A stretch of DNA of 9,236 nucleotides from Naegleria gruberi. Taxonomy: Eukaryota. Where the stretch lies: NCBI GenBank assembly GCA_000004985.1, contig GG739042.1. One strand, 5' to 3'. The position numbers were made by a program, and so were the translations under genes. Positions 1 through 9,236 of the stretch are shown piece by piece; within the stretch, counting starts at the first letter, position 1; each line of letters starts with the position of its first letter. The notes below the pieces were generated by a model, which had not been told where the DNA came from, ran no database searches, and was given only the letters and a program-made list of their open reading frames with translations.

Positions 1-226
1 ACTACCTGTAATGCATGCCAGTAATAGAATGTTAAATGATTTATCATGATAAACCCTAAAAAATTGATTGTATTGAAATTTTGAAAAGAATGTGTGTGGA
101 AGAAAGTTTGCTAATGGAAAGCAATTACAATAATTGTGATTTTTCATTGGTAATGTTGGAATGGATGGTAAATGGAGAAAAGAATGACCTTGCTTGTTGT
201 TTTGTATCTTTCTCTGTCTAATTTCT

Positions 227-562
227 TCAGGGCTTTGAAAATTTCTCTCTTCTTTGATTTTTGAATTTTGCTGAGGATGGATTCAAGTCAACTGGCTTTG
301 GTTTTTGTGATGTTTTCGTATTCTTTGATTTTGGTGCATACATTTTGGCCTGTTCTAAACACCACAAGGTCTGTGAGTCGAAGTATTTTCTAGCATCATG
401 TTTGCAACATCTTCTCACATGGAAAACATATCCAACTTGATCAATTTTCTTGTTACATTTTCTTTATGGAATAATAATTACACATGATCAGATTGAATTT
501 TGAAATTTGATGAAAATGAAACAATGCAACTTACATATCATATCCTTTGGGATGTACATCAT
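227..562 (-). CDS. Zinc-finger module copy C, probably a degenerate paralog. Candidate exon 535..562 (ATG 562, MMYIPKDMI), GTAAGT donor at 534..529, downstream ORF 227..463 (RKCNKKIDQVGYVF-H-VRR-C-CKHDARKYFDSQTLWCLEQAKMYAPKS...KFSKP*)
   Basis: The 3' exon is clearly paralogous to copy A at both DNA and protein level (KCNKKI..F.F-HVRRCCK.D...T.C.LE.A.M.AP). Using the only upstream acceptor (AG 463..462), the phase-1 donor gives T+AA = TAA. The frame is off by one base relative to copy A, which has GC there. The alternative acceptor at AG 437..436 is in frame but removes the CxxC half (..KDMI-F-GYVFHVRRCC..). The ORF-track start at 418 is a GTG, not an ATG. Confidence 0.3.
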
Positions 563-635
563 GGATAGATGCTTGGTTGTATATCGTAGTATATCGAGCC
601 TTCTCAAGATTCTAACACAGTCCCAACTGTCCAGA

Positions 636-872
636 TTAGCATAATAGGGATCTTCGGATGTGACATTGATAAGGTTGACATCTTCTCATGTGATAATCGA
701 GGAAATTTCCTCTAAAGCACTTGTTACACTTTTGACCTTAATATATTTAATATATTATCAAATAATCAAAATGATGATGAAGATTCACTTAATACATTTG
801 ATACTGATGAAATTACTTACATGATCCGAAGGAATTAGAACCAACTCCCAATCTTTTCAAGTACCTATTTGA
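636..872 (-). CDS. Small C2HC zinc-finger module, copy B. Upstream exon fragment 821..872 (..SNRYLKRLGVGSNSFGS, no ATG), intron 737..820, exon 636..736. Spliced finger: C-Q-K-C-NKCFRGNFLDY-H-MRR-C-QPYQCHIRRSLLC*
   Basis: A GTAAGT donor at 820..815 follows T821 (phase 1), and an ATTAAG acceptor ends at 737. T+GT = TGT (Cys), then CAA AAG TGT, giving C-x2-C-x11-H-x3-C. TAA lies at 638..636. The upstream open frame is only 17 codons and has no Met, so the 5' end of this gene is unresolved. Confidence 0.35.
737..820 (-). other. Intron, 84 nt, phase 1, GTAAGT...AAG, in zinc-finger copy B
   Basis: Same donor context as copy A (T of the Cys codon, then GTAAGT). The interior is AT-rich, and splicing restores the CxxC pair. 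Confidence 0.35.
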
Positions 873-1052
873 TTATCATGTTCTTCCTGATCAAAACAGT
901 CGGAATACTTTTCCAATTCGCTTTCAATCATTTCCTCAAAGGTCTTTGAAGAGATAACAAGAGCTTGAGGCAGAGACATTGTGTTGTTCGATTTTTTTTT
1001 TGAGAACTTTTGATCATTTCACAAATAGAGAAAGAGATTGAGGAAATTGAAT

Positions 1053-1510
1053 TTATTGTTGGAATGAATATTTCTTAACTATTAATTGTCTTTTGAGACA
1101 TTGATGGATTGTGATTGTGGAAAATGAGGATTTTCCACTCAATTGATATCTTTTCCTATCTAATTCAATTAAGGATTTAAGAGTTTCTCTGTTTTTTGGT
1201 TTTTTAACAATTGCAGACTTATTGGCACGACGAGGAATAGGAGCATTCATTATAGCAATTTCTAATTTACAGTATGTTCTTTCATCTAACAACTTTTTTG
1301 GATCATATTTGCAGCATCTTCTTACGTGGAAATTAAAACCAATGCTGCCAATTTTCTTGTTGCACTTTGGGCCTTTTTCAATTTGATTAGTTAACATTTC
1401 AATTACAAGCAACTTACAAGTTTCAGTAATGGTAACAGGTTTGAGTGTATGTGAAGAGGGATGTTTACTCTTTGGTTGGACTGACTGGACAGGTTGTTCA
1501 GTTAACTTCT
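1053..1510 (-). CDS. Small C2HC zinc-finger protein, copy A (partial; 5' end runs into the assembly gap). Exon 1418..1510+, intron 1373..1417, exon 1053..1372 with TAA at 1053..1055. Spliced finger: ...PVTITET-C-P-K-C-NKKIGSIGFNF-H-VRR-C-CKYD...
   Basis: The minus-strand frame is open from the gap edge to TAA 1053..1055. A GTAAGT donor sits at 1417..1412 right after T1418 (phase 1), and an AAAAAG acceptor ends at 1373. After splicing the junction reads T+GC = TGC (Cys), then CCA AAG TGC, giving C-P-x-C-x11-H-x3-C. That is the spacing of Rad18/WRNIP1-type UBZ4 fingers, which I am recalling from memory. The 45-nt intron is a multiple of 3 and contains no stop, so the unspliced reading is also open. 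The tail (CCKYD..T.C.LE.A.M.AP) is conserved with copy C. Confidence 0.5.
1373..1417 (-). other. Intron, 45 nt, phase 1 (donor GTAAGT, acceptor AAAAAG), in zinc-finger copy A
   Basis: A canonical GTAAGT donor follows T1418. CTAAT (a branch-like CTRAY motif) lies inside. Splicing produces the Cys-Pro-Lys-Cys knuckle. The same donor context, T|GTAAGT inside a Cys codon, recurs in copies B and C. Confidence 0.45.
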
Positions 1511-4500
1511 NNNNNNNNNNNNNNNNNNNNNNNNNNNNNNNNNNNNNNNNNNNNNNNNNNNNNNNNNNNNNNNNNNNNNNNNNNNNNNNNNNNNNNNNNN
1601 NNNNNNNNNNNNNNNNNNNNNNNNNNNNNNNNNNNNNNNNNNNNNNNNNNNNNNNNNNNNNNNNNNNNNNNNNNNNNNNNNNNNNNNNNNNNNNNNNNNN
1701 NNNNNNNNNNNNNNNNNNNNNNNNNNNNNNNNNNNNNNNNNNNNNNNNNNNNNNNNNNNNNNNNNNNNNNNNNNNNNNNNNNNNNNNNNNNNNNNNNNNN
1801 NNNNNNNNNNNNNNNNNNNNNNNNNNNNNNNNNNNNNNNNNNNNNNNNNNNNNNNNNNNNNNNNNNNNNNNNNNNNNNNNNNNNNNNNNNNNNNNNNNNN
1901 NNNNNNNNNNNNNNNNNNNNNNNNNNNNNNNNNNNNNNNNNNNNNNNNNNNNNNNNNNNNNNNNNNNNNNNNNNNNNNNNNNNNNNNNNNNNNNNNNNNN
2001 NNNNNNNNNNNNNNNNNNNNNNNNNNNNNNNNNNNNNNNNNNNNNNNNNNNNNNNNNNNNNNNNNNNNNNNNNNNNNNNNNNNNNNNNNNNNNNNNNNNN
2101 NNNNNNNNNNNNNNNNNNNNNNNNNNNNNNNNNNNNNNNNNNNNNNNNNNNNNNNNNNNNNNNNNNNNNNNNNNNNNNNNNNNNNNNNNNNNNNNNNNNN
2201 NNNNNNNNNNNNNNNNNNNNNNNNNNNNNNNNNNNNNNNNNNNNNNNNNNNNNNNNNNNNNNNNNNNNNNNNNNNNNNNNNNNNNNNNNNNNNNNNNNNN
2301 NNNNNNNNNNNNNNNNNNNNNNNNNNNNNNNNNNNNNNNNNNNNNNNNNNNNNNNNNNNNNNNNNNNNNNNNNNNNNNNNNNNNNNNNNNNNNNNNNNNN
2401 NNNNNNNNNNNNNNNNNNNNNNNNNNNNNNNNNNNNNNNNNNNNNNNNNNNNNNNNNNNNNNNNNNNNNNNNNNNNNNNNNNNNNNNNNNNNNNNNNNNN
2501 NNNNNNNNNNNNNNNNNNNNNNNNNNNNNNNNNNNNNNNNNNNNNNNNNNNNNNNNNNNNNNNNNNNNNNNNNNNNNNNNNNNNNNNNNNNNNNNNNNNN
2601 NNNNNNNNNNNNNNNNNNNNNNNNNNNNNNNNNNNNNNNNNNNNNNNNNNNNNNNNNNNNNNNNNNNNNNNNNNNNNNNNNNNNNNNNNNNNNNNNNNNN
2701 NNNNNNNNNNNNNNNNNNNNNNNNNNNNNNNNNNNNNNNNNNNNNNNNNNNNNNNNNNNNNNNNNNNNNNNNNNNNNNNNNNNNNNNNNNNNNNNNNNNN
2801 NNNNNNNNNNNNNNNNNNNNNNNNNNNNNNNNNNNNNNNNNNNNNNNNNNNNNNNNNNNNNNNNNNNNNNNNNNNNNNNNNNNNNNNNNNNNNNNNNNNN
2901 NNNNNNNNNNNNNNNNNNNNNNNNNNNNNNNNNNNNNNNNNNNNNNNNNNNNNNNNNNNNNNNNNNNNNNNNNNNNNNNNNNNNNNNNNNNNNNNNNNNN
3001 NNNNNNNNNNNNNNNNNNNNNNNNNNNNNNNNNNNNNNNNNNNNNNNNNNNNNNNNNNNNNNNNNNNNNNNNNNNNNNNNNNNNNNNNNNNNNNNNNNNN
3101 NNNNNNNNNNNNNNNNNNNNNNNNNNNNNNNNNNNNNNNNNNNNNNNNNNNNNNNNNNNNNNNNNNNNNNNNNNNNNNNNNNNNNNNNNNNNNNNNNNNN
3201 NNNNNNNNNNNNNNNNNNNNNNNNNNNNNNNNNNNNNNNNNNNNNNNNNNNNNNNNNNNNNNNNNNNNNNNNNNNNNNNNNNNNNNNNNNNNNNNNNNNN
3301 NNNNNNNNNNNNNNNNNNNNNNNNNNNNNNNNNNNNNNNNNNNNNNNNNNNNNNNNNNNNNNNNNNNNNNNNNNNNNNNNNNNNNNNNNNNNNNNNNNNN
3401 NNNNNNNNNNNNNNNNNNNNNNNNNNNNNNNNNNNNNNNNNNNNNNNNNNNNNNNNNNNNNNNNNNNNNNNNNNNNNNNNNNNNNNNNNNNNNNNNNNNN
3501 NNNNNNNNNNNNNNNNNNNNNNNNNNNNNNNNNNNNNNNNNNNNNNNNNNNNNNNNNNNNNNNNNNNNNNNNNNNNNNNNNNNNNNNNNNNNNNNNNNNN
3601 NNNNNNNNNNNNNNNNNNNNNNNNNNNNNNNNNNNNNNNNNNNNNNNNNNNNNNNNNNNNNNNNNNNNNNNNNNNNNNNNNNNNNNNNNNNNNNNNNNNN
3701 NNNNNNNNNNNNNNNNNNNNNNNNNNNNNNNNNNNNNNNNNNNNNNNNNNNNNNNNNNNNNNNNNNNNNNNNNNNNNNNNNNNNNNNNNNNNNNNNNNNN
3801 NNNNNNNNNNNNNNNNNNNNNNNNNNNNNNNNNNNNNNNNNNNNNNNNNNNNNNNNNNNNNNNNNNNNNNNNNNNNNNNNNNNNNNNNNNNNNNNNNNNN
3901 NNNNNNNNNNNNNNNNNNNNNNNNNNNNNNNNNNNNNNNNNNNNNNNNNNNNNNNNNNNNNNNNNNNNNNNNNNNNNNNNNNNNNNNNNNNNNNNNNNNN
4001 NNNNNNNNNNNNNNNNNNNNNNNNNNNNNNNNNNNNNNNNNNNNNNNNNNNNNNNNNNNNNNNNNNNNNNNNNNNNNNNNNNNNNNNNNNNNNNNNNNNN
4101 NNNNNNNNNNNNNNNNNNNNNNNNNNNNNNNNNNNNNNNNNNNNNNNNNNNNNNNNNNNNNNNNNNNNNNNNNNNNNNNNNNNNNNNNNNNNNNNNNNNN
4201 NNNNNNNNNNNNNNNNNNNNNNNNNNNNNNNNNNNNNNNNNNNNNNNNNNNNNNNNNNNNNNNNNNNNNNNNNNNNNNNNNNNNNNNNNNNNNNNNNNNN
4301 NNNNNNNNNNNNNNNNNNNNNNNNNNNNNNNNNNNNNNNNNNNNNNNNNNNNNNNNNNNNNNNNNNNNNNNNNNNNNNNNNNNNNNNNNNNNNNNNNNNN
4401 NNNNNNNNNNNNNNNNNNNNNNNNNNNNNNNNNNNNNNNNNNNNNNNNNNNNNNNNNNNNNNNNNNNNNNNNNNNNNNNNNNNNNNNNNNNNNNNNNNNN

Positions 4501-6240
4501 NNNNNNNNNNNNNNNNNNNNNNNNNNNNNNNNNNNNNNNNNNNNNNNNNNNNNNNNNNNNNNNNNNNNNNNNNNNNNNNNNNNNNNNNNNNNNNNNNNNN
4601 NNNNNNNNNNNNNNNNNNNNNNNNNNNNNNNNNNNNNNNNNNNNNNNNNNNNNNNNNNNNNNNNNNNNNNNNNNNNNNNNNNNNNNNNNNNNNNNNNNNN
4701 NNNNNNNNNNNNNNNNNNNNNNNNNNNNNNNNNNNNNNNNNNNNNNNNNNNNNNNNNNNNNNNNNNNNNNNNNNNNNNNNNNNNNNNNNNNNNNNNNNNN
4801 NNNNNNNNNNNNNNNNNNNNNNNNNNNNNNNNNNNNNNNNNNNNNNNNNNNNNNNNNNNNNNNNNNNNNNNNNNNNNNNNNNNNNNNNNNNNNNNNNNNN
4901 NNNNNNNNNNNNNNNNNNNNNNNNNNNNNNNNNNNNNNNNNNNNNNNNNNNNNNNNNNNNNNNNNNNNNNNNNNNNNNNNNNNNNNNNNNNNNNNNNNNN
5001 NNNNNNNNNNNNNNNNNNNNNNNNNNNNNNNNNNNNNNNNNNNNNNNNNNNNNNNNNNNNNNNNNNNNNNNNNNNNNNNNNNNNNNNNNNNNNNNNNNNN
5101 NNNNNNNNNNNNNNNNNNNNNNNNNNNNNNNNNNNNNNNNNNNNNNNNNNNNNNNNNNNNNNNNNNNNNNNNNNNNNNNNNNNNNNNNNNNNNNNNNNNN
5201 NNNNNNNNNNNNNNNNNNNNNNNNNNNNNNNNNNNNNNNNNNNNNNNNNNNNNNNNNNNNNNNNNNNNNNNNNNNNNNNNNNNNNNNNNNNNNNNNNNNN
5301 NNNNNNNNNNNNNNNNNNNNNNNNNNNNNNNNNNNNNNNNNNNNNNNNNNNNNNNNNNNNNNNNNNNNNNNNNNNNNNNNNNNNNNNNNNNNNNNNNNNN
5401 NNNNNNNNNNNNNNNNNNNNNNNNNNNNNNNNNNNNNNNNNNNNNNNNNNNNNNNNNNNNNNNNNNNNNNNNNNNNNNNNNNNNNNNNNNNNNNNNNNNN
5501 NNNNNNNNNNNNNNNNNNNNNNNNNNNNNNNNNNNNNNNNNNNNNNNNNNNNNNNNNNNNNNNNNNNNNNNNNNNNNNNNNNNNNNNNNNNNNNNNNNNN
5601 NNNNNNNNNNNNNNNNNNNNNNNNNNNNNNNNNNNNNNNNNNNNNNNNNNNNNNNNNNNNNNNNNNNNNNNNNNNNNNNNNNNNNNNNNNNNNNNNNNNN
5701 NNNNNNNNNNNNNNNNNNNNNNNNNNNNNNNNNNNNNNNNNNNNNNNNNNNNNNNNNNNNNNNNNNNNNNNNNNNNNNNNNNNNNNNNNNNNNNNNNNNN
5801 NNNNNNNNNNNNNNNNNNNNNNNNNNNNNNNNNNNNNNNNNNNNNNNNNNNNNNNNNNNNNNNNNNNNNNNNNNNNNNNNNNNNNNNNNNNNNNNNNNNN
5901 NNNNNNNNNNNNNNNNNNNNNNNNNNNNNNNNNNNNNNNNNNNNNNNNNNNNNNNNNNNNNNNNNNNNNNNNNNNNNNNNNNNNNNNNNNNNNNNNNNNN
6001 NNNNNNNNNNNNNNNNNNNNNNNNNNNNNNNNNNNNNNNNNNNNNNNNNNNNNNNNNNNNNNNNNNNNNNNNNNNNNNNNNNNNNNNNNNNNNNNNNNNN
6101 NNNNNNNNNNNNNNNNNNNNNNNNNNNNNNNNNNNNNNNNNNNNNNNNNNNNNNNNNNNNNNNNNNNNNNNNNNNNNNNNNNNNNNNNNNNNNNNNNNNN
6201 NNNNNNNNNNNNNNNNNNNNNNNNNNNNNNNNNNNNNNNN
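1511..6240. other. Assembly/scaffold gap (4,730 N)
   Basis: An uninterrupted run of n from 1511 to 6240. Confidence 0.99.
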
Positions 6241-7195
6241 TAGCTACTGGAAGTTTATAAACTATATCACAAAAGTAGTTTTCAAAGTATGAGGATGTTA
6301 GTTCAATGAGATGGGAGAAATTTTTTACTCCAATATTGTACAACATTAACTCAACTCCTGCCAATATTCTGCCAAGCCTTTTTCTTGTTCTGTCATTGTA
6401 GCATGAATCATTTGTTCTGACATCAAGTACTTCACTACTATTTGCACTCTGCCTCGAGGTTGTAATAAATTTACTGTTGGGGAAGTTTGACATGTACGAT
6501 TGAGCTGCCAGTAATGTGTATGCTGGATCTACAGTTAACGAAAGTTGTTTCATGTTCATGACAGAATAAACATTTCCATTATTCTTAATAAAGGTTGAAG
6601 GGTGGTCTTTTTCTACAAATTGTGAGAAGTCCATTTCTCCATATTCCAAAGAATAATCAATATTCTCCAAGGCCTTCTTTGGTGCCTTTTTTTTTGGTGA
6701 ACCTAATTCAGAAGAAGCAGCTCGTTTATTAGATTCCTGAGGTGTTGGTTCAGAATTTTCTAAAAAAGAAGATGGTAAAAAAGACGACTGGGTGCTTAAT
6801 ACATCAACATTTGAATCTTGAGTCAAATTGAGTCTTTGGGTATTTGAAATTGGAGATGTGTTATTGAAAGGAGTTGTCACATGTTGAATGTTGACTCGTT
6901 GTTGGAAGTTTGATGTTGGAGTTGTTGTTGTTTCATGTTGACCAATGTTAACTCGTTGTTGAAAGTATCTTACATGATTTGAGGTAGGAATAATGTGTTG
7001 AAGGATAGGTGTTGGACTCGGAGACACCACATAGTTTGGAGAGGTTATGTGGATTGGTATTTGAGATGTGGTGTTGTGTTGAAGGCTTGATATTGGGGAT
7101 GTTGCTGGTTGATAAAGGAATGGGCTGTAGAGTAAGGGTGATCTGTAGGATTGAGGTTGGTTGATGATTACTTGATGGTTGAATTGTTGATTCAT
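6241..7195 (-). CDS. Hypothetical protein, 5' part (ATG 7195; continues into the gap). Q/N/S/T/P-rich N-terminus, basic KRAASSELGSPKKKAPKK patch, then a conserved domain shared with the ORF at 7226..8065
   Basis: The minus-strand frame is open for 318 codons from ATG 7195 (A-rich context aaaaaaATG) down to the gap edge. The composition is coding-like in one frame only. The domain is similar to the upstream ORF (E.DF..F.EK; LG..L..V.L.L...GV.NF). Confidence 0.55.
6881..6974 (-). repeat. Imperfect ~55-nt direct repeat within the coding region, encoding the duplicated peptide FQQRVNI(G)QH(E)TTTP
   Basis: atgttgaatgttgactcgttgttggaagtt (6881..) recurs as atgttgaccaatgttaactcgttgttgaaagta (6935..). 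At protein level it is YFQQRVNIGQHETTTTP and NFQQRVNIQHVTTP. Confidence 0.45.
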
Positions 7196-7219
7196 TTTTT
7201 TGAATTTAAATTGAAACGG

Positions 7220-7291
7220 CTATATTTATTGAACAACAATTTCCATGTCTTTCTCGAATTTGAATGATGAGTAGACTTGATTGGATCTTAC
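7220..7291 (-). other. Candidate 72-nt in-frame intron (donor GTAAGA at 7291..7286, acceptor ATATAG ending at 7220) that would join ORF 7226..8065 to the ORF starting at 7195
   Basis: The donor follows complete codon AAT (7294..7292). The acceptor is followed by CCG TTT CAA TTT AAA TTC AAA AAA ATG, which is in frame with ATG 7195. The length (72) is typical of the other introns here, but it is a multiple of 3 and removes the stop, so frame alone cannot confirm it. Confidence 0.3.
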
Positions 7292-8065
7292 ATTGCAGGT
7301 AAGGGAGATGTAGTTAATTTTCATCCTATGTAACAAAACTTTTTGGCCAAATTTGCACGTGTTGTTGATAAGCTTAACCTGAAAGTTGCCCCAATCATCA
7401 TACTTATCCAAACATGGAAGACAATTCTTGAATCGAAATTGGATACATTCTTCCTTAACTTTAATACCATGCTTCTTAACAACTTGGAACCATTGATTGA
7501 ATACACCATTTGTTTCCTTCAATATCAAGTAAAAGACTGTTGGTAGACATGAACCAAGAGTAAGATGGTGGACTCTACTAGTGTTTCTCATTTCCAAATG
7601 ATCATTAATGATAGAACGGGCACACTTGGCAAACATATCCCAAACCACTCTATAAACCTGTTTTACCTCACTTGAAATATCTGTCCAACATTGATACTTT
7701 GGTGCATATGAATAAACTCCCTTTTCCAAAATAAAATCACACTCCTCATAATCACGTTCATCATCCTCATCCAAAATAACTTTCCTCTTCTTTGCCTTTG
7801 ATTTAGATCTTTTTCCACTTGAACTTTGTTTGGTTTGTTCAGATGTTTGAAAGTCGGATGATGTTGAAAGATGAAAAACAAGTGATGGAGAATTAGATGA
7901 CGGAGAAGATGAAGAATTACTACTAATATTGATGCTAGTAAAAGATGGAGCATCAAACATGTCTAAAGTTCCTTCACAGAGTACAGTTTCATGGTTGTTC
8001 ATTGTTAGTGTTGTTGATGTATTATGATATTTGTTTTGAGTTGAATTTGGTATGAACAAACGCAT
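7226..8065 (-). CDS. Hypothetical protein, 279 aa (ATG 8065, TAA 7226..7228). S/T-rich N-terminus, basic SGKRSKSKAKKRK patch, acidic stretch, conserved C-terminal domain of unknown family; paralogous to 6241..7195
   Basis: An uninterrupted ORF with the same architecture as the downstream gene (low-complexity, then basic NLS-like patch, then conserved domain). It may be exon 1 of a single larger gene, as described in the findings. Confidence 0.55.
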   Translation of the reverse strand: MRLFIPNSTQNKYHNTSTTLTMNNHETVLCEGTLDMFDAPSFTSINISSNSSSSPSSNSPSLVFHLSTSSDFQTSEQTKQSSSGKRSKSKAKKRKVILDEDDERDYEECDFILEKGVYSYAPKYQCWTDISSEVKQVYRVVWDMFAKCARSIINDHLEMRNTSRVHHLTLGSCLPTVFYLILKETNGVFNQWFQVVKKHGIKVKEECIQFRFKNCLPCLDKYDDWGNFQVKLINNTCKFGQKVLLHRMKINYISLTCNVRSNQVYSSFKFEKDMEIVVQ

Positions 8066-8223
8066 TGTTGTATTTATTCATTTTTTTCAAAATGGTTCAA
8101 GTTGGTTGTACGGCAACCATTACAGCAACTTGTCGTTTAATAAGAAAAGAGGCTGAAAAATATTGCAGTGTATTAAATTAAACCTATTTTAGATTTACGT
8201 ATTAAAAAATCTATTTAAAAAAA
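8066..8223. promoter_or_regulatory. 158-bp divergent intergenic region between minus-strand ATG 8065 and plus-strand ATG 8224; presumed bidirectional promoter/5' UTRs
   Basis: Two genes are transcribed away from each other. The spacer is AT-rich with A/T homopolymers (tttttttcaaaATG on minus, tatttaaaaaaaATG on plus). No specific motif was verified. Confidence 0.35.
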
Positions 8224-8832
8224 ATGTTTAACGGTGTTTCGAGCGGAACCACTACTCCTTTGGTTAATACACCAAAAAGTACTCCCTCTACACCTGCTGG
8301 TTCTTCATCATCGTTTGGAGGAAATATCTTCTCAAACGGTTTAAATATATTAGGATCCAATGCAACGGAACAACAGACAACACCAAGTATCAACAGATCA
8401 AAAGGGATTAATGCTTGGCAGGTTTGTCCTGGTTCTATTAATCCCTATCCTCAAGCTTTTACATGGTCAACATTTATGGGTGATGAAGTGATTGCTTTTG
8501 CAAGCGGAAGACATGTTATGGTTTATTGTGGAAATAGTTTTGTTCAATTATTGGATGGTCATGATGAAACTATTACCAGCGTAAAATGGAGTAATCTTCA
8601 TGGAAGAATTGCTGCTTGCTCAAGAGGAAAAATTGTTATTTATTCTCCAGTTGAAGATGAGGTTGACAATGGTGCCTTGAAAAAGAGCCCTTCTTGGATT
8701 GTTGAACAGGTTATTAACTCAACAGATGAATTCGAATGCATGGATTGGAATTTTTATGGTGATAGACTAATTGTTGGTGGAAAAACTACAATGATTTTTG
8801 AAGGAAAACCTATTCTAGGAAATCAAGTTTAT
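8224..8832 (+). CDS. RAV1: Rav1/DMXL (rabconnectin-3 alpha, RAVE complex subunit, regulator of V-ATPase assembly) homolog, exon 1
   Basis: Motifs AWQVCPGSINPYPQAFT...NSFVQLLDGHDETITSVKWSNLHGRIAACSRGKIVIYSP match the conserved N-terminal WD-propeller region of DMXL1/2 as I recall it (HQVLTGAVNPGD...ECVQIIPGAKHGNIQVSCVECSNQHGRIAASYGNAVCIFEP). ECMDWNFYGDRLIVGG matches yeast Rav1 as I recall it (VNCLRWSSDNELAIGSD). The exon ends at the GTATGT donor at 8833. Confidence 0.85.
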
Positions 8833-8872
8833 GTATGTTTCTTTATGTTTAGAAATTTATAATATAGTTTAG
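8833..8872 (+). other. Intron, 40 nt (GTATGT ... TTTAG), phase 0, in RAV1
   Basis: The in-frame read-through hits TAA after FRNL. A canonical fungal-type GTATGT donor starts on a codon boundary. The acceptor at 8871..8872 restores a long open frame. The alternative acceptor at 8866..8867 gives an immediate TGA. Confidence 0.75.
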
Positions 8873-9236
8873 AAATGGAATATGGTTTGGAAATATGACA
8901 ATCCAACTCCAATTTACTTAGTTGCATATTCACCAGATGAAAAATATTTTGCAACAGTGTCCAAGTTTGATCGTCTTGTAAAGGTTTGGTATAGAAACAA
9001 ACCTCAAGTCAGAGTATCATTATTTACTCCAGTAATTACTATTGTAGATCCAAAATCTACTTCACAAACTATTGAGGATGATGAAGAAGAAAGTTTTTCC
9101 TACATTTATTTACCTCATCCTCGTTCAGTTACTTCCATCTCATGGAGATTTAAGGATATACAATCACAACAAAGAGATGAATTTACAGCTAATGTTTTAT
9201 TGACAACATCTATTGACAATGTGGTACGTGTATGGA
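8873..9236 (+). CDS. RAV1: Rav1/DMXL homolog, exon 2 (partial; continues beyond the window)
   Basis: The frame is open to the window end. KWNMVWKYDNPTPIYLVAYSPDEKYFATVSKFDRLVKVWYR aligns with yeast Rav1 as I recall it (QPILQWNQKQPKPVYNVIISQDSQLIVSIGKYDCNAKLWKR), a WD-repeat-like segment. Confidence 0.8.

What the first reader, a model, noticed from the sequence alone, without database searches (positions are those of the whole stretch)
227..1510. Tandem triplication of a Rad18/WRNIP1-type (UBZ4-like) C2HC zinc-finger mini-gene
Three same-orientation copies (A ~1053..1510, B ~636..872, C ~227..562) encode C-x2-C-x11-H-x3-C fingers with a shared HxRRC core (HVRRCC / HMRRCQ / HVRRCC). Copy A also carries the Pro after the first Cys (CPKC) that is typical of UBZ4 ubiquitin-binding fingers in Rad18, WRNIP1, SLX4, FAAP20 and Spartan. 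A and C also share a C-terminal extension (D..T.C.LE.A.M.AP). A local array of small UBZ4-like genes is unusual, since UBZ4 normally appears as one or two fingers inside large DNA-repair proteins. It suggests a lineage-specific expansion, possibly of small ubiquitin-binding or DNA-damage adaptor proteins. The alternative is one multi-finger gene whose linking introns I could not resolve.
Basis: partly seen in the sequence, partly recalled or inferred. Interest (0 to 1): 0.6.

Follow-up and report, generated by a model that had tools for sequence, protein, structure and literature searches.

The report
Naegleria orphan C2HC zinc-finger paralogs
Three diverged neighbouring copies of a small, very basic zinc-finger gene sit on one strand of a Naegleria gruberi scaffold; they are real and old but have no detectable relatives, and they do not qualify as Rad18-type ubiquitin-binding fingers.

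Summary
The window is a 9,236-bp Naegleria gruberi scaffold with a 4.7-kb N gap. On the minus strand, K-C-N-K-x9-H-[VM]-R-R-C occurs exactly three times (407-460, 678-731, 1314-1367), against 0 in 200 shuffles. In all three copies a conserved T|GTAAGT donor lies upstream. In A and B it supplies the first Cys through a phase-1 intron, giving CPKC or CQKC, then x11-H-x3-C. In C that splice gives a stop codon. The finger (CKKC) is restored only if the donor moves 4 nt.

A and C are homologous from the finger to the stop codon (E=1e-21). Synonymous sites are saturated (pS 0.71) and pN is 0.28, so this is an old duplication under protein-level constraint. B is a shorter, more diverged copy.

No homologue was found in 1.84 billion proteins. 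The UBZ4 label is not supported:
- The Asp that RAD18 needs for ubiquitin binding is Arg here.
- UBZ Pfam models do not match, although the RAD18 and WRNIP1 controls do.
- The fingers carry +4 to +5 net charge.

The best, sub-threshold, resemblance is to Sgf11-type and ZC2HC1-type fingers. The most likely reading is a lineage-specific, unannotated family of basic C2HC-finger proteins. Copy A's 5' end is lost in the gap, and whether B and C are intact is unresolved. Interest is low to moderate.

The parts
1418..1510 (-). Copy A, upstream exon (partial). Open frame KLTEQPVQSVQPKSKHPSSHTLKPVTITET plus the first base (T1418) of the split Cys codon. It continues into the N gap, so the start of gene A is unknown.
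1373..1417 (-). Copy A, putative phase-1 intron of 45 nt, GTAAGT...AAAAAG. Its length is a multiple of 3 and it has no in-frame stop, so read-through would also stay open.
   Evidence: Short GTAAGT/GTATGT introns of 40 and 46 nt are verified in the neighbouring WD40 gene.
1053..1372 (-). Copy A, finger exon: (C)PKCNKKIGSIGFNFHVRRCC, an extension (KYDPKKLLDERTYCKLEIAIMNAP), a basic tail (KKPKNRETLKSLIELDRKRYQ...) and stop TAA at 1053-1055. This is the only copy that is intact without further assumptions.
857..979 (-). ATG-initiated ORF upstream of copy B (MSLPQALVISSKTFEEMIESELEKYSDCFDQEEHDNQIGT*). Its 3' part is used as the last exon of JGI model NAEGRDRAFT_54768. It is a candidate first exon of B.
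737..820 (-). Copy B, putative phase-1 intron of 84 nt, GTAAGT...ATTAAG, with in-frame stops.
636..736 (-). Copy B, finger exon: (C)QKCNKCFRGNFLDYHMRRCQPYQCHIRRSLLC with stop TAA at 636-638. It carries about 16 extra nt relative to A after the finger. A possible remnant of the extension (EDPYYANLDSWDC) is therefore in another frame.
535..690 (-). Open frame upstream of copy C (…EDPYYANLDSWDCVRILRRLDILRYTTKHLSMMYIPKDMI plus T535 of the Cys codon). It contains ATG codons at 560-562 and 557-559 that could start a short C gene.
462..534 (-). Copy C intron. With the conserved donor T|GTAAGT (534) it is 73 nt long and gives a TAA stop. With the donor 4 nt downstream (530, GTTGCA) it is 69 nt long and gives CKKC.
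227..461 (-). Copy C, finger exon in its own frame: (K)KCNKKIDQVGYVFHVRRCC, the extension (KHDARKYFDSQTLWCLEQAKMYAP) and then the TGA stop at 227-229.
252..292 (-). Copy C, 41-nt GT...AG segment (GTTGAC...TCAAAG). Removing it joins the finger frame to the tail frame. It may be an intron that A lacks, a frame-breaking insertion, or a sequencing error.
144..251 (-). Copy C, tail homologous to A's tail (KREIFKALKKLDRERYKTTSKVILFSIYHPFQHYQ) with stop TGA at 144-146, in a different frame from the C finger.
   Evidence: (repeat D5)

Best explanation
This is an old local duplication of a Naegleria-specific, unannotated gene on the minus strand. The ancestral unit had an upstream exon ending in the first base of a Cys codon, then a short phase-1 GTAAGT intron. 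A second exon encoded the rest of a C-x2-C-x11-H-x3-C zinc finger, a helical extension and a Lys/Arg-rich tail.

Shown:
- There are three copies, A, B and C.
- A and C are full-length paralogs that stayed under purifying selection at the protein level for most of their history.
- B is a shorter, more diverged copy lying between them.
- The family has no detectable homologue elsewhere.

Inferred:
- The products are small zinc-binding proteins of the general beta-beta-alpha C2HC type.
- Because the finger is strongly basic and has Arg-Arg where UBZ4 has its ubiquitin-contacting Asp, they more likely dock on nucleic acid or on an acidic protein surface. The Arg-bearing Sgf11 finger docks in this way on the H2A/H2B acidic patch. 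Binding ubiquitin in the Rad18/WRNIP1 manner is less likely.
- A is probably functional. B and C are either functional through additional very short or shifted introns, or they are recently disabled copies or carry sequencing errors on this low-coverage scaffold end.
For: - Exactly three pattern matches on one strand, against 0 in 200 shuffles.
- A versus C, E=1e-21; A versus B finger, E=1e-4.
- A versus C Nei-Gojobori: pS 0.71-0.72 (saturated) against pN 0.28 for finger plus extension and 0.33 for the tail. The finger frame is the only one of six with pS much greater than pN and no stops. Differences by codon position are 11/14/23.
- T|GTAAGT is conserved 7 of 7 bases in all copies at the same codon phase, while the intron bodies differ in length (45, 84 and 69-73 nt) and sequence.
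- Two verified short introns in the adjacent WD40 gene, 40 nt GTATGT..TTTAG and 46 nt GTAAGT..TGTAG, show that such introns are normal here.
- Orphan status.
- General C2HC class: hhalign to Sgf11 94%, to ZC2HC1-like 95% and to UBZ4 67%, all above ligand-fixed permutations. The best Pfam family is Sgf11 at 16.3 and 17.7 bits.
- Basic character: finger net charge +4 to +5, and the A product has pI 10.1. UBZ4 fingers carry -1 to 0.
- The Sgf11 zinc finger contacts the H2A/H2B acidic patch (PMC8080568).
- A low-confidence AF2 model puts a helix over FNFHVRRC, as expected for the His/Cys-bearing helix.
Against: - There is no transcript, EST or protein evidence. JGI did not annotate any of the fingers, and its model NAEGRDRAFT_54768 treats A as intronic.
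- Splicing is inferred only.
- With the conserved donor, C reads a stop, and its tail is out of frame. B loses the extension frame.
- The intact models for B and C were picked from more than 150,000 enumerated GT-AG combinations and use weak donors (GTTGCA, GTTGAC, GTATTC), so they could be chance.
- All family-level matches are below curated thresholds.
- Structure prediction was uninformative: pLDDT 35 and 59, and no Foldseek hit.
- Function is pure inference from composition and analogy.
- A may be the 3' end of a larger gene hidden in the gap.
Confidence: 0.6

Rival explanations
1. One live gene plus two dead ones. A is the only functional copy and may be the last exons of a larger gene whose 5' part lies in the gap. 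B and C are recently inactivated pseudogenes from partial tandem duplication.
For: With the conserved GTAAGT donor, C gives an in-frame TAA, and its tail is frame-shifted. B has about 16 extra nt after the finger that throw the extension out of frame, and its upstream open frame has no ATG. The rescue models need weak donors chosen from very many combinations. The Q/N-rich ORF at 6241-7195 runs into the gap on the same strand as A's open upstream exon.
Against: pN/pS is about 0.4 with saturated pS for both the finger and the out-of-frame tail of C. This argues that C was constrained for nearly all of its history. The defects could equally be errors in a roughly 1.5-kb contig at the end of a gapped Sanger scaffold. 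The 4-nt loss after C's acceptor is exactly compensated by the GT inside GTAAGT.
Confidence: 0.3
2. These are genuine UBZ4-type ubiquitin-binding adaptors: small Rad18/WRNIP1-like fingers that read ubiquitin marks in DNA-damage signalling.
For: The ligand spacing is identical, A has CPxC, and hydrophobic residues sit at the template positions. hhalign to RAD18 plus WRNIP1 gives 67% and exceeds 99 of 100 ligand-fixed permutations. There is a weak zf_UBZ knuckle hit of 13 bits.
Against: Arg replaces the Asp equivalent to RAD18 D221, whose loss abrogates ubiquitin binding (PMC6667477). There is no hit to zf-WRNIP1_ubi or UBZ_FAAP20, while the controls do hit. No UBZ4 protein appears in the PDB search. 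UBZ4 is the weakest of the three classes compared. The fingers carry +4 to +5 charge, against -1 to 0 for UBZ4.
Confidence: 0.07
3. One multi-finger gene: B and C, and perhaps A, are exons of a single transcript encoding a protein with several fingers.
For: The copies are close together on the same strand (73 nt between A's stop and B's ATG). A frame-0 ORF runs from inside B's 3' end to C's donor. GT-AG paths exist that put the B and C fingers into one ORF.
Against: A and C each end at a homologous stop codon (1053-1055 and 144-146), and A's stop is followed by an ATG ORF. The joining paths need a GTCACA donor and delete C's first Cys. The best long ATG-to-144 model splices the B finger out altogether.
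Confidence: 0.05

Closest known systems
Sgf11 / ATXN7L3-type zinc finger (Pfam PF08209; yeast Sgf11 residues 73-92, PDB 3m99_B and 2lo2_A)
   Same: It has the same C-x2-C-x11-H-x3-C spacing. It is the best Pfam family for A (16.3 bits, E=0.007) and for C (17.7 bits, E=0.003). hhalign gives 94%, score 30.5. Arg sits at H+3 (Sgf11 HLQRC, here HVRRC/HMRRC), and a basic residue follows the knuckle. The Sgf11 finger contacts the acidic patch of H2A/H2B (PMC8080568).
   Different: Scores are well below the 26.4-bit cut-off. True UBZ4 fingers cross-hit Sgf11 at the same level (15-19 bits), so the match is not specific. The extension and tail have no counterpart in Sgf11. No SAGA deubiquitinase-module context is known. 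B does not hit it.
UBZ4 (Rad18/WRNIP1-type ubiquitin-binding zinc finger; Pfam zf-WRNIP1_ubi PF18279, zf_UBZ PF18439, UBZ_FAAP20 PF15750)
   Same: The ligand spacing matches, CPxC is present in copy A, and hydrophobic positions fit the template. hhalign gives 67%, score 20.9.
   Different: The ubiquitin-contacting Asp (RAD18 D221) is Arg. Apart from a 13-bit knuckle-only zf_UBZ hit there is no Pfam match. No UBZ4 hit appears in PDB at E<=10. The fingers are strongly basic rather than neutral or acidic. They lie in small or orphan ORFs rather than in large repair proteins.
ZC2HC1-type 'C2HC/C3H' finger (Pfam zf-C2HC_2 PF13913; PDB 9y6s_4E)
   Same: The spacing is the same. It is the third-best PDB hit for the A finger (E=0.6; TCQLCGKGFGSASINIHIPQC against TCPKCNKKIGSIGFNFHVRRC). 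hhalign gives 95%, score 31.4.
   Different: zf-C2HC_2 does not match at E<=10, whereas the 9y6s_4E control scores 25.6 bits. The reference was chosen because it had already hit the query, so its hhalign score is inflated by selection.

Membership tests
UBZ4 (Rad18/WRNIP1-type) | C-x2-C-x11-H-x3-C zinc-ligand spacing | tested here: met
   A and B meet it after removal of the GTAAGT intron. C meets it only with the donor shifted 4 nt.
UBZ4 (Rad18/WRNIP1-type) | Asp two residues after the His (H-x-D-x-C; RAD18 D221, WRNIP1 HLDRC), which is needed for ubiquitin binding | tested here: not met
   The copies read HVRRC, HMRRC and HVRRC, so the position is Arg in all three. RAD18 and WRNIP1 sequences were verified from PDB. 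D221A abrogates ubiquitin binding (PMC6667477).
UBZ4 (Rad18/WRNIP1-type) | Match to curated UBZ profiles (zf-WRNIP1_ubi, zf_UBZ, UBZ_FAAP20) at or near the gathering score | tested here: not met
   Only zf_UBZ matches, at 13.0 bits (cut-off 25.6), over residues 3-13 of the A peptide. B and C give nothing. Controls: RAD18 25.9 bits and WRNIP1 53.6 bits to zf-WRNIP1_ubi.
UBZ4 (Rad18/WRNIP1-type) | Sequence similarity to solved UBZ4 fingers | tested here: not met
   phmmer of the A finger against PDB returns no RAD18, WRNIP1, FAN1, Pol kappa or RAP80 at E<=10. The RAD18 query finds all of them.
UBZ4 (Rad18/WRNIP1-type) | Beta-beta-alpha zinc-finger fold | tested here: inconclusive
   The structure tool refuses spliced peptides. 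Unspliced A gave pLDDT 35. Exon 2 alone gave pLDDT 59 with a helix over FNFHVRRC but no hairpin, and Foldseek against PDB gave 0 hits.
UBZ4 (Rad18/WRNIP1-type) | Binds ubiquitin | not testable with these tools
   This needs a binding assay.
Sgf11-type zinc finger (PF08209) | Pfam score at or above the gathering threshold (26.4 bits) | tested here: not met
   A scores 16.3 bits and C 17.7 bits. B gives no hit.
Sgf11-type zinc finger (PF08209) | Basic residues on the finger, including Arg at H+3 (Sgf11 R91) | tested here: met
   The hhalign alignment places HVRRC opposite HLQRC. The Sgf11 sequence and numbering were verified from 3m99_B. Net charge is +4 to +5.
Sgf11-type zinc finger (PF08209) | C-terminal finger of a roughly 100-aa SAGA deubiquitinase-module subunit with an N-terminal helix | not tested
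   A's N-terminus is in the gap. Here the finger is followed by about 85 further residues, unlike Sgf11, where the finger is C-terminal.
ZC2HC1-type finger (zf-C2HC_2, PF13913) | Match to the Pfam model | tested here: not met
   There is no hit at E<=10 for A, B or C. The control 9y6s_4E finger scores 25.6 bits.
Generic C2HC (C-x2-C-x11-H-x3-C) beta-beta-alpha finger class | Similarity to class members beyond the four ligands | tested here: met
   hhalign scores of 20.9, 31.4 and 30.5 compare with ligand-fixed column permutation means of 10-13. At most 1 of 100 permutations reaches the observed score.

The most novel reading that the evidence does not exclude
A Naegleria-restricted family of tiny, highly basic C2HC-finger proteins with no homologue among about 15 billion predicted proteins. 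The family was kept under purifying selection after an ancient tandem duplication. In copy C, a 4-nt deletion at the intron acceptor was compensated by sliding the donor 4 nt onto the internal GT of GTAAGT, which preserves the zinc knuckle (CPKC becomes CKKC). If expressed, these would be unannotated chromatin-binding or nucleic-acid-binding micro-proteins and a clean natural example of compensatory intron sliding.
Probability: 0.25. Interest if true: 0.4.

Novelty: new member of a known kind. Interest (0 to 1): 0.25.

Why it matters
If the copies are expressed, the locus adds an unannotated, lineage-specific family of small basic zinc-finger proteins to the Naegleria gruberi gene set. It also shows that the current JGI model across this scaffold (NAEGRDRAFT_54768) is probably wrong.

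It is a caution against assigning UBZ4 and ubiquitin binding from C-x2-C-x11-H-x3-C spacing alone. Sgf11, ZC2HC1, TRAF-type and LYAR fingers share that spacing and cross-match one another.

The possible donor shift in copy C would be a small but neat case of intron sliding.

None of this bears on a long-standing open question.

Tried and rejected
- Pfam on the long peptides gave only irrelevant weak hits (HetE-N, Endosulfine).
- The search for homologous proteins with spliced A found nothing at E<=1.
- A full HMMER profile search of 1.84 billion representatives with the exon-2 alignment gave 0 hits.
With A alone it found no relative in JGI metagenomes or IMG/VR.
- My degenerate-pattern scan of metagenome contigs used the wrong spacer (30 N instead of 27). 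It is uninformative: its 3 hits are chance or an ordinary C2H2-like finger in a 54% GC contig. The corrected pattern gave 0 hits in viral contigs.
- Exact-protein look-ups of the C ORF, the B upstream ORF and the JGI proteins P0001-P0003 were not on record. The gap could therefore not be bridged, and the main N. gruberi scaffolds could not be read.
- The structure tools refuse spliced peptides. AF2 on unspliced A and on exon 2 alone gave low confidence, and Foldseek found nothing.
- A mobile-element explanation was considered because two metagenome contigs diverge from the window at 8170 and 8186, and because of a weak MrpR tyrosine-recombinase hit (E=0.039) on the 279-aa ORF. There are no repeats, no multi-copy family beyond one 52% paralog and no link to the finger genes, so I did not pursue it.
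- Plus-strand ORFs over the fingers (for example LQHLLTWK) are antisense shadows. Their frames show pS no greater than pN, or contain stops.
- Literature searches for the BioProject and for the locus tags found nothing.
Full report
**Source and layout**

The window is an entire 9,236-bp scaffold of Naegleria gruberi. The only protein matching the ORF at 6241-7195 is NAEGRDRAFT_54768, at 100% identity and with a longest contig of 9,236 bp. Bases 1511-6240 are a run of N. The reported feature lies in the 1,510-bp contig to the left of the gap, on the minus strand.

**Checking the observation**

A degenerate pattern for K-C-N-K-x9-H-[VM]-R-R-C matches exactly three times, all on the minus strand: 1314-1367 (A), 678-731 (B) and 407-460 (C). 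It gave 0 matches in 200 dinucleotide-preserving shuffles. H.RRC occurs nowhere else in any frame.

Each copy has the heptamer T|GTAAGT upstream, with the T as the first base of a codon in an open frame.
- In A, removing the 45 nt at 1373-1417 (GTAAGT...AAAAAG) joins T to GC CCA AAG TGC. This gives CPKCNKKIGSIGFNFHVRRC.
- In B, removing the 84 nt at 737-820 (GTAAGT...ATTAAG) gives CQKCNKCFRGNFLDYHMRRC.
- In C, the acceptor is followed by 4 nt fewer than in A and B (CCATAAAG|AAAATGT against AAAAAG|GCCCAAAGTGC), so the conserved donor yields TAA. The knuckle is restored as TGT AAA AAA TGT (CKKC) only if the GT four bases downstream is used, inside GTAAGT, giving TGTAA|GTTGCA.

Such short introns are normal in this organism. 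The adjacent WD40 gene needs a 40-nt GTATGT...TTTAG intron (8833-8872). Its continuation on a metagenome contig needs a 46-nt GTAAGT...TGTAG intron to keep its frame.

**Extent of the homology**

A and C are related well beyond the finger. BLASTP of A against frame-repaired C gives E=1e-21 (41% identity over 97 residues). The direct repeats are offset by 903-907 nt. C changes frame between its extension and its tail.

B matches A only over the finger (E=1e-4). It carries about 16 extra nucleotides after HMRRC and stops at 636-638. A possible remnant of the extension (EDPYYANLDSWDC) follows in another frame, but that similarity is weak.

**Is it coding?**

For the ungapped 45-codon A/C block, pS is 0.72 (saturated) and pN is 0.28. 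The tail gives pS 0.71 and pN 0.33. Of the six frames, only the finger frame combines pS much greater than pN with no stop codons. Differences by codon position are 11, 14 and 23.

The duplication is therefore old, and both copies evolved under protein-level constraint for most of that time. That sits badly with C being a long-dead pseudogene.

**Gene models**

I enumerated GT-AG introns of 30-200 nt.
- C becomes an intact ORF of about 100 aa (MMYIPKDMICKKCNKK...HYQ*) with the shifted donor plus removal of a 41-nt GTTGAC...TCAAAG segment (252-292). That removal also makes the AP-to-RE spacing similar to A's.
- B becomes an intact 71-aa ORF from ATG 979 with a 44-nt intron (865-908, GTATTC...AATAG) plus the 84-nt intron. 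Alternatively it is 60 aa with a donor at 897.

These models were selected from more than 150,000 combinations and use weak donors, so they are possibilities, not findings. The alternatives are recent inactivation, or base-calling errors in a thin contig at the end of a gapped Sanger scaffold.

A's upstream exon is open right up to the gap, so its start is unknown. The Q/N-rich ORF starting at 7195 enters the gap on the same strand, so A could even be the 3' end of that gene.

A single multi-finger gene is unlikely. A and C have their own homologous stops, and paths joining the B and C fingers need a GTCACA donor and remove C's first Cys.

The JGI model NAEGRDRAFT_54768 joins the 279-aa ORF, the Q/N-rich ORF and, across the gap and over copy A, the ORF upstream of B. 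On a 499,907-bp scaffold the same 279-aa ORF is modelled on its own, as NAEGRDRAFT_71975. The fused model is therefore probably an artefact.

**Relatives**

None were found.
- The word-indexed search of 5.8 billion clusters found nothing at E<=1.
- A full HMMER profile search of 1.84 billion representatives gave 0 hits at E<=1e-3.
- tblastn-confirmed scans of JGI metagenomes and IMG/VR gave nothing.
- The corrected DNA pattern gave 0 hits in viral contigs.
- My metagenome pattern scan had a wrong spacer and is void.

The N. gruberi genome itself could not be searched at the DNA level with these tools, so the size of the family within the genome is unknown.

**Which finger class?**

Spacing alone does not decide. 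RAD18 and WRNIP1 (UBZ4), Sgf11, ZC2HC1-like, TRAF-type and LYAR fingers all share it and cross-hit one another weakly.

Four results count against UBZ4:
1. The residue two after the His is Arg in all three copies. RAD18 and WRNIP1 have Asp there (HLDSC and HLDRC, sequences verified), and RAD18 D221A abrogates ubiquitin binding (PMC6667477).
2. Pfam gives only a 13-bit zf_UBZ match to the CxxC knuckle of A, and nothing for zf-WRNIP1_ubi or UBZ_FAAP20. The RAD18 and WRNIP1 controls score 25.9 and 53.6 bits.
3. phmmer of the A finger against PDB lists eL37, the CCHFV Gn-tail finger and a ZC2HC1-like protein (E 0.4-0.6), but no UBZ4 protein at E<=10.
4. The fingers carry +4 to +5 net charge, against -1 to 0 for UBZ4.

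The best Pfam family for A and C is Sgf11, at 16.3 and 17.7 bits against a cut-off of 26.4. Genuine UBZ4 fingers hit Sgf11 at the same level, so this match is not specific.

hhalign of the three-copy finger alignment gives 94% to Sgf11, 95% to the ZC2HC1-like fingers of 9y6s_4E (a reference chosen post hoc) and 67% to RAD18 plus WRNIP1. All three exceed column permutations that keep the ligands fixed, with at most 1 of 100 permutations reaching the observed score.

The finger therefore fits the generic beta-beta-alpha C2HC template but is not a member of any curated subfamily.

Structure prediction could not settle the fold. Unspliced A gave pLDDT 35. Exon 2 alone gave pLDDT 59 with a helix over FNFHVRRC, and no Foldseek hit.

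**Likely mechanism (inferred)**

The product is probably a small zinc-stabilised finger whose helix presents Arg-Arg between the His and Cys ligands. Lys-rich residues follow the knuckle, and then come helical and Lys/Arg-rich segments (the A product has pI 10.1).

That composition favours binding to nucleic acid or to an acidic protein surface. An analogy is the Sgf11 finger, which contacts the H2A/H2B acidic patch (PMC8080568), and Sgf11 R91 aligns with the second Arg of HVRRC. The Asp-mediated UBZ4 mode of ubiquitin recognition is less likely. This step is analogy, not evidence.

**Verdict**

This is a real, old, lineage-specific cluster of C2HC-finger paralogs that is unannotated and has no detectable relatives. 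The UBZ4 ubiquitin-adaptor part does not.

In novelty it is a new member of a known kind (generic C2HC fingers). Interest is low to moderate, and would rise somewhat if RNA data confirm expression and the compensatory donor shift in copy C.

Noticed in passing
window 8156-8186; L001 3467-4824; L002 2193-3267: Two contigs from one ENA metagenome (ERZ929261) carry N. gruberi-like DNA. L001 is 100% identical to window 6813-8170 and then continues into a 738-aa Ras/Roc gene. L002 matches window ~8186-9236 with one SNP, but upstream it carries a 184-aa Ras gene. The window's junction at ~8170-8186 is therefore absent from that sample. It could be a chimeric small scaffold, a strain rearrangement, or the edge of an inserted segment.
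   Followed up: partly
window 7226-8065 (-): This intronless 279-aa ORF is identical to NAEGRDRAFT_71975 on a 499,907-bp scaffold, so this small scaffold duplicates part of the main assembly. It has one 52%-identical paralog, NAEGRDRAFT_62544, and no relatives outside N. gruberi. The only Pfam hit is a weak one to the MrpR C-terminal catalytic domain (E=0.039).
   Followed up: partly
window 857-8002 (-), JGI model NAEGRDRAFT_54768: The annotated 468-aa protein fuses most of the 279-aa ORF, the Q/N-rich ORF, and, through a roughly 5.5-kb 'intron' that contains the N gap and finger copy A, the short ORF upstream of copy B. It is probably an artefactual gene model.
   Followed up: partly
window 6241-7195 (-): A Q/N/S/T-rich ORF (MNQQFNHQVIINQPQSYRSPLLY...) stays open into the gap. 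It has no Pfam domain and no homologue other than the JGI model. It could be the 5' part of the gene that ends in finger copy A.
   Followed up: partly
window 8224-9236 (+); L002 2255-7476: A WD40-repeat gene that runs off the right end of the window. It has very short phase-restoring introns: 40 nt at 8833-8872 (GTATGT...TTTAG) and 46 nt at L002 4444-4489 (GTAAGT...TGTAG).
   Followed up: yes
window 1-270 (-), third reading frame: A stop-free frame of about 90 codons (…QNSKIKEERNFQSPEEIRQRKIQNNKQGHSFLHLPSIPTLPMKNHNYCNCFPLANF…) runs to the left end of the scaffold and overlaps C's tail in a different frame. That is unusual in DNA of about 32% GC. It was not examined further.
   Followed up: no
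window 1373-1417, 737-820, 462-530: All three putative finger introns are multiples of 3 in length (45, 84 and 69 nt). A's intron has no in-frame stop, so intron retention in A would insert 15 residues between the two Cys of the knuckle without truncating the protein.
   Followed up: no
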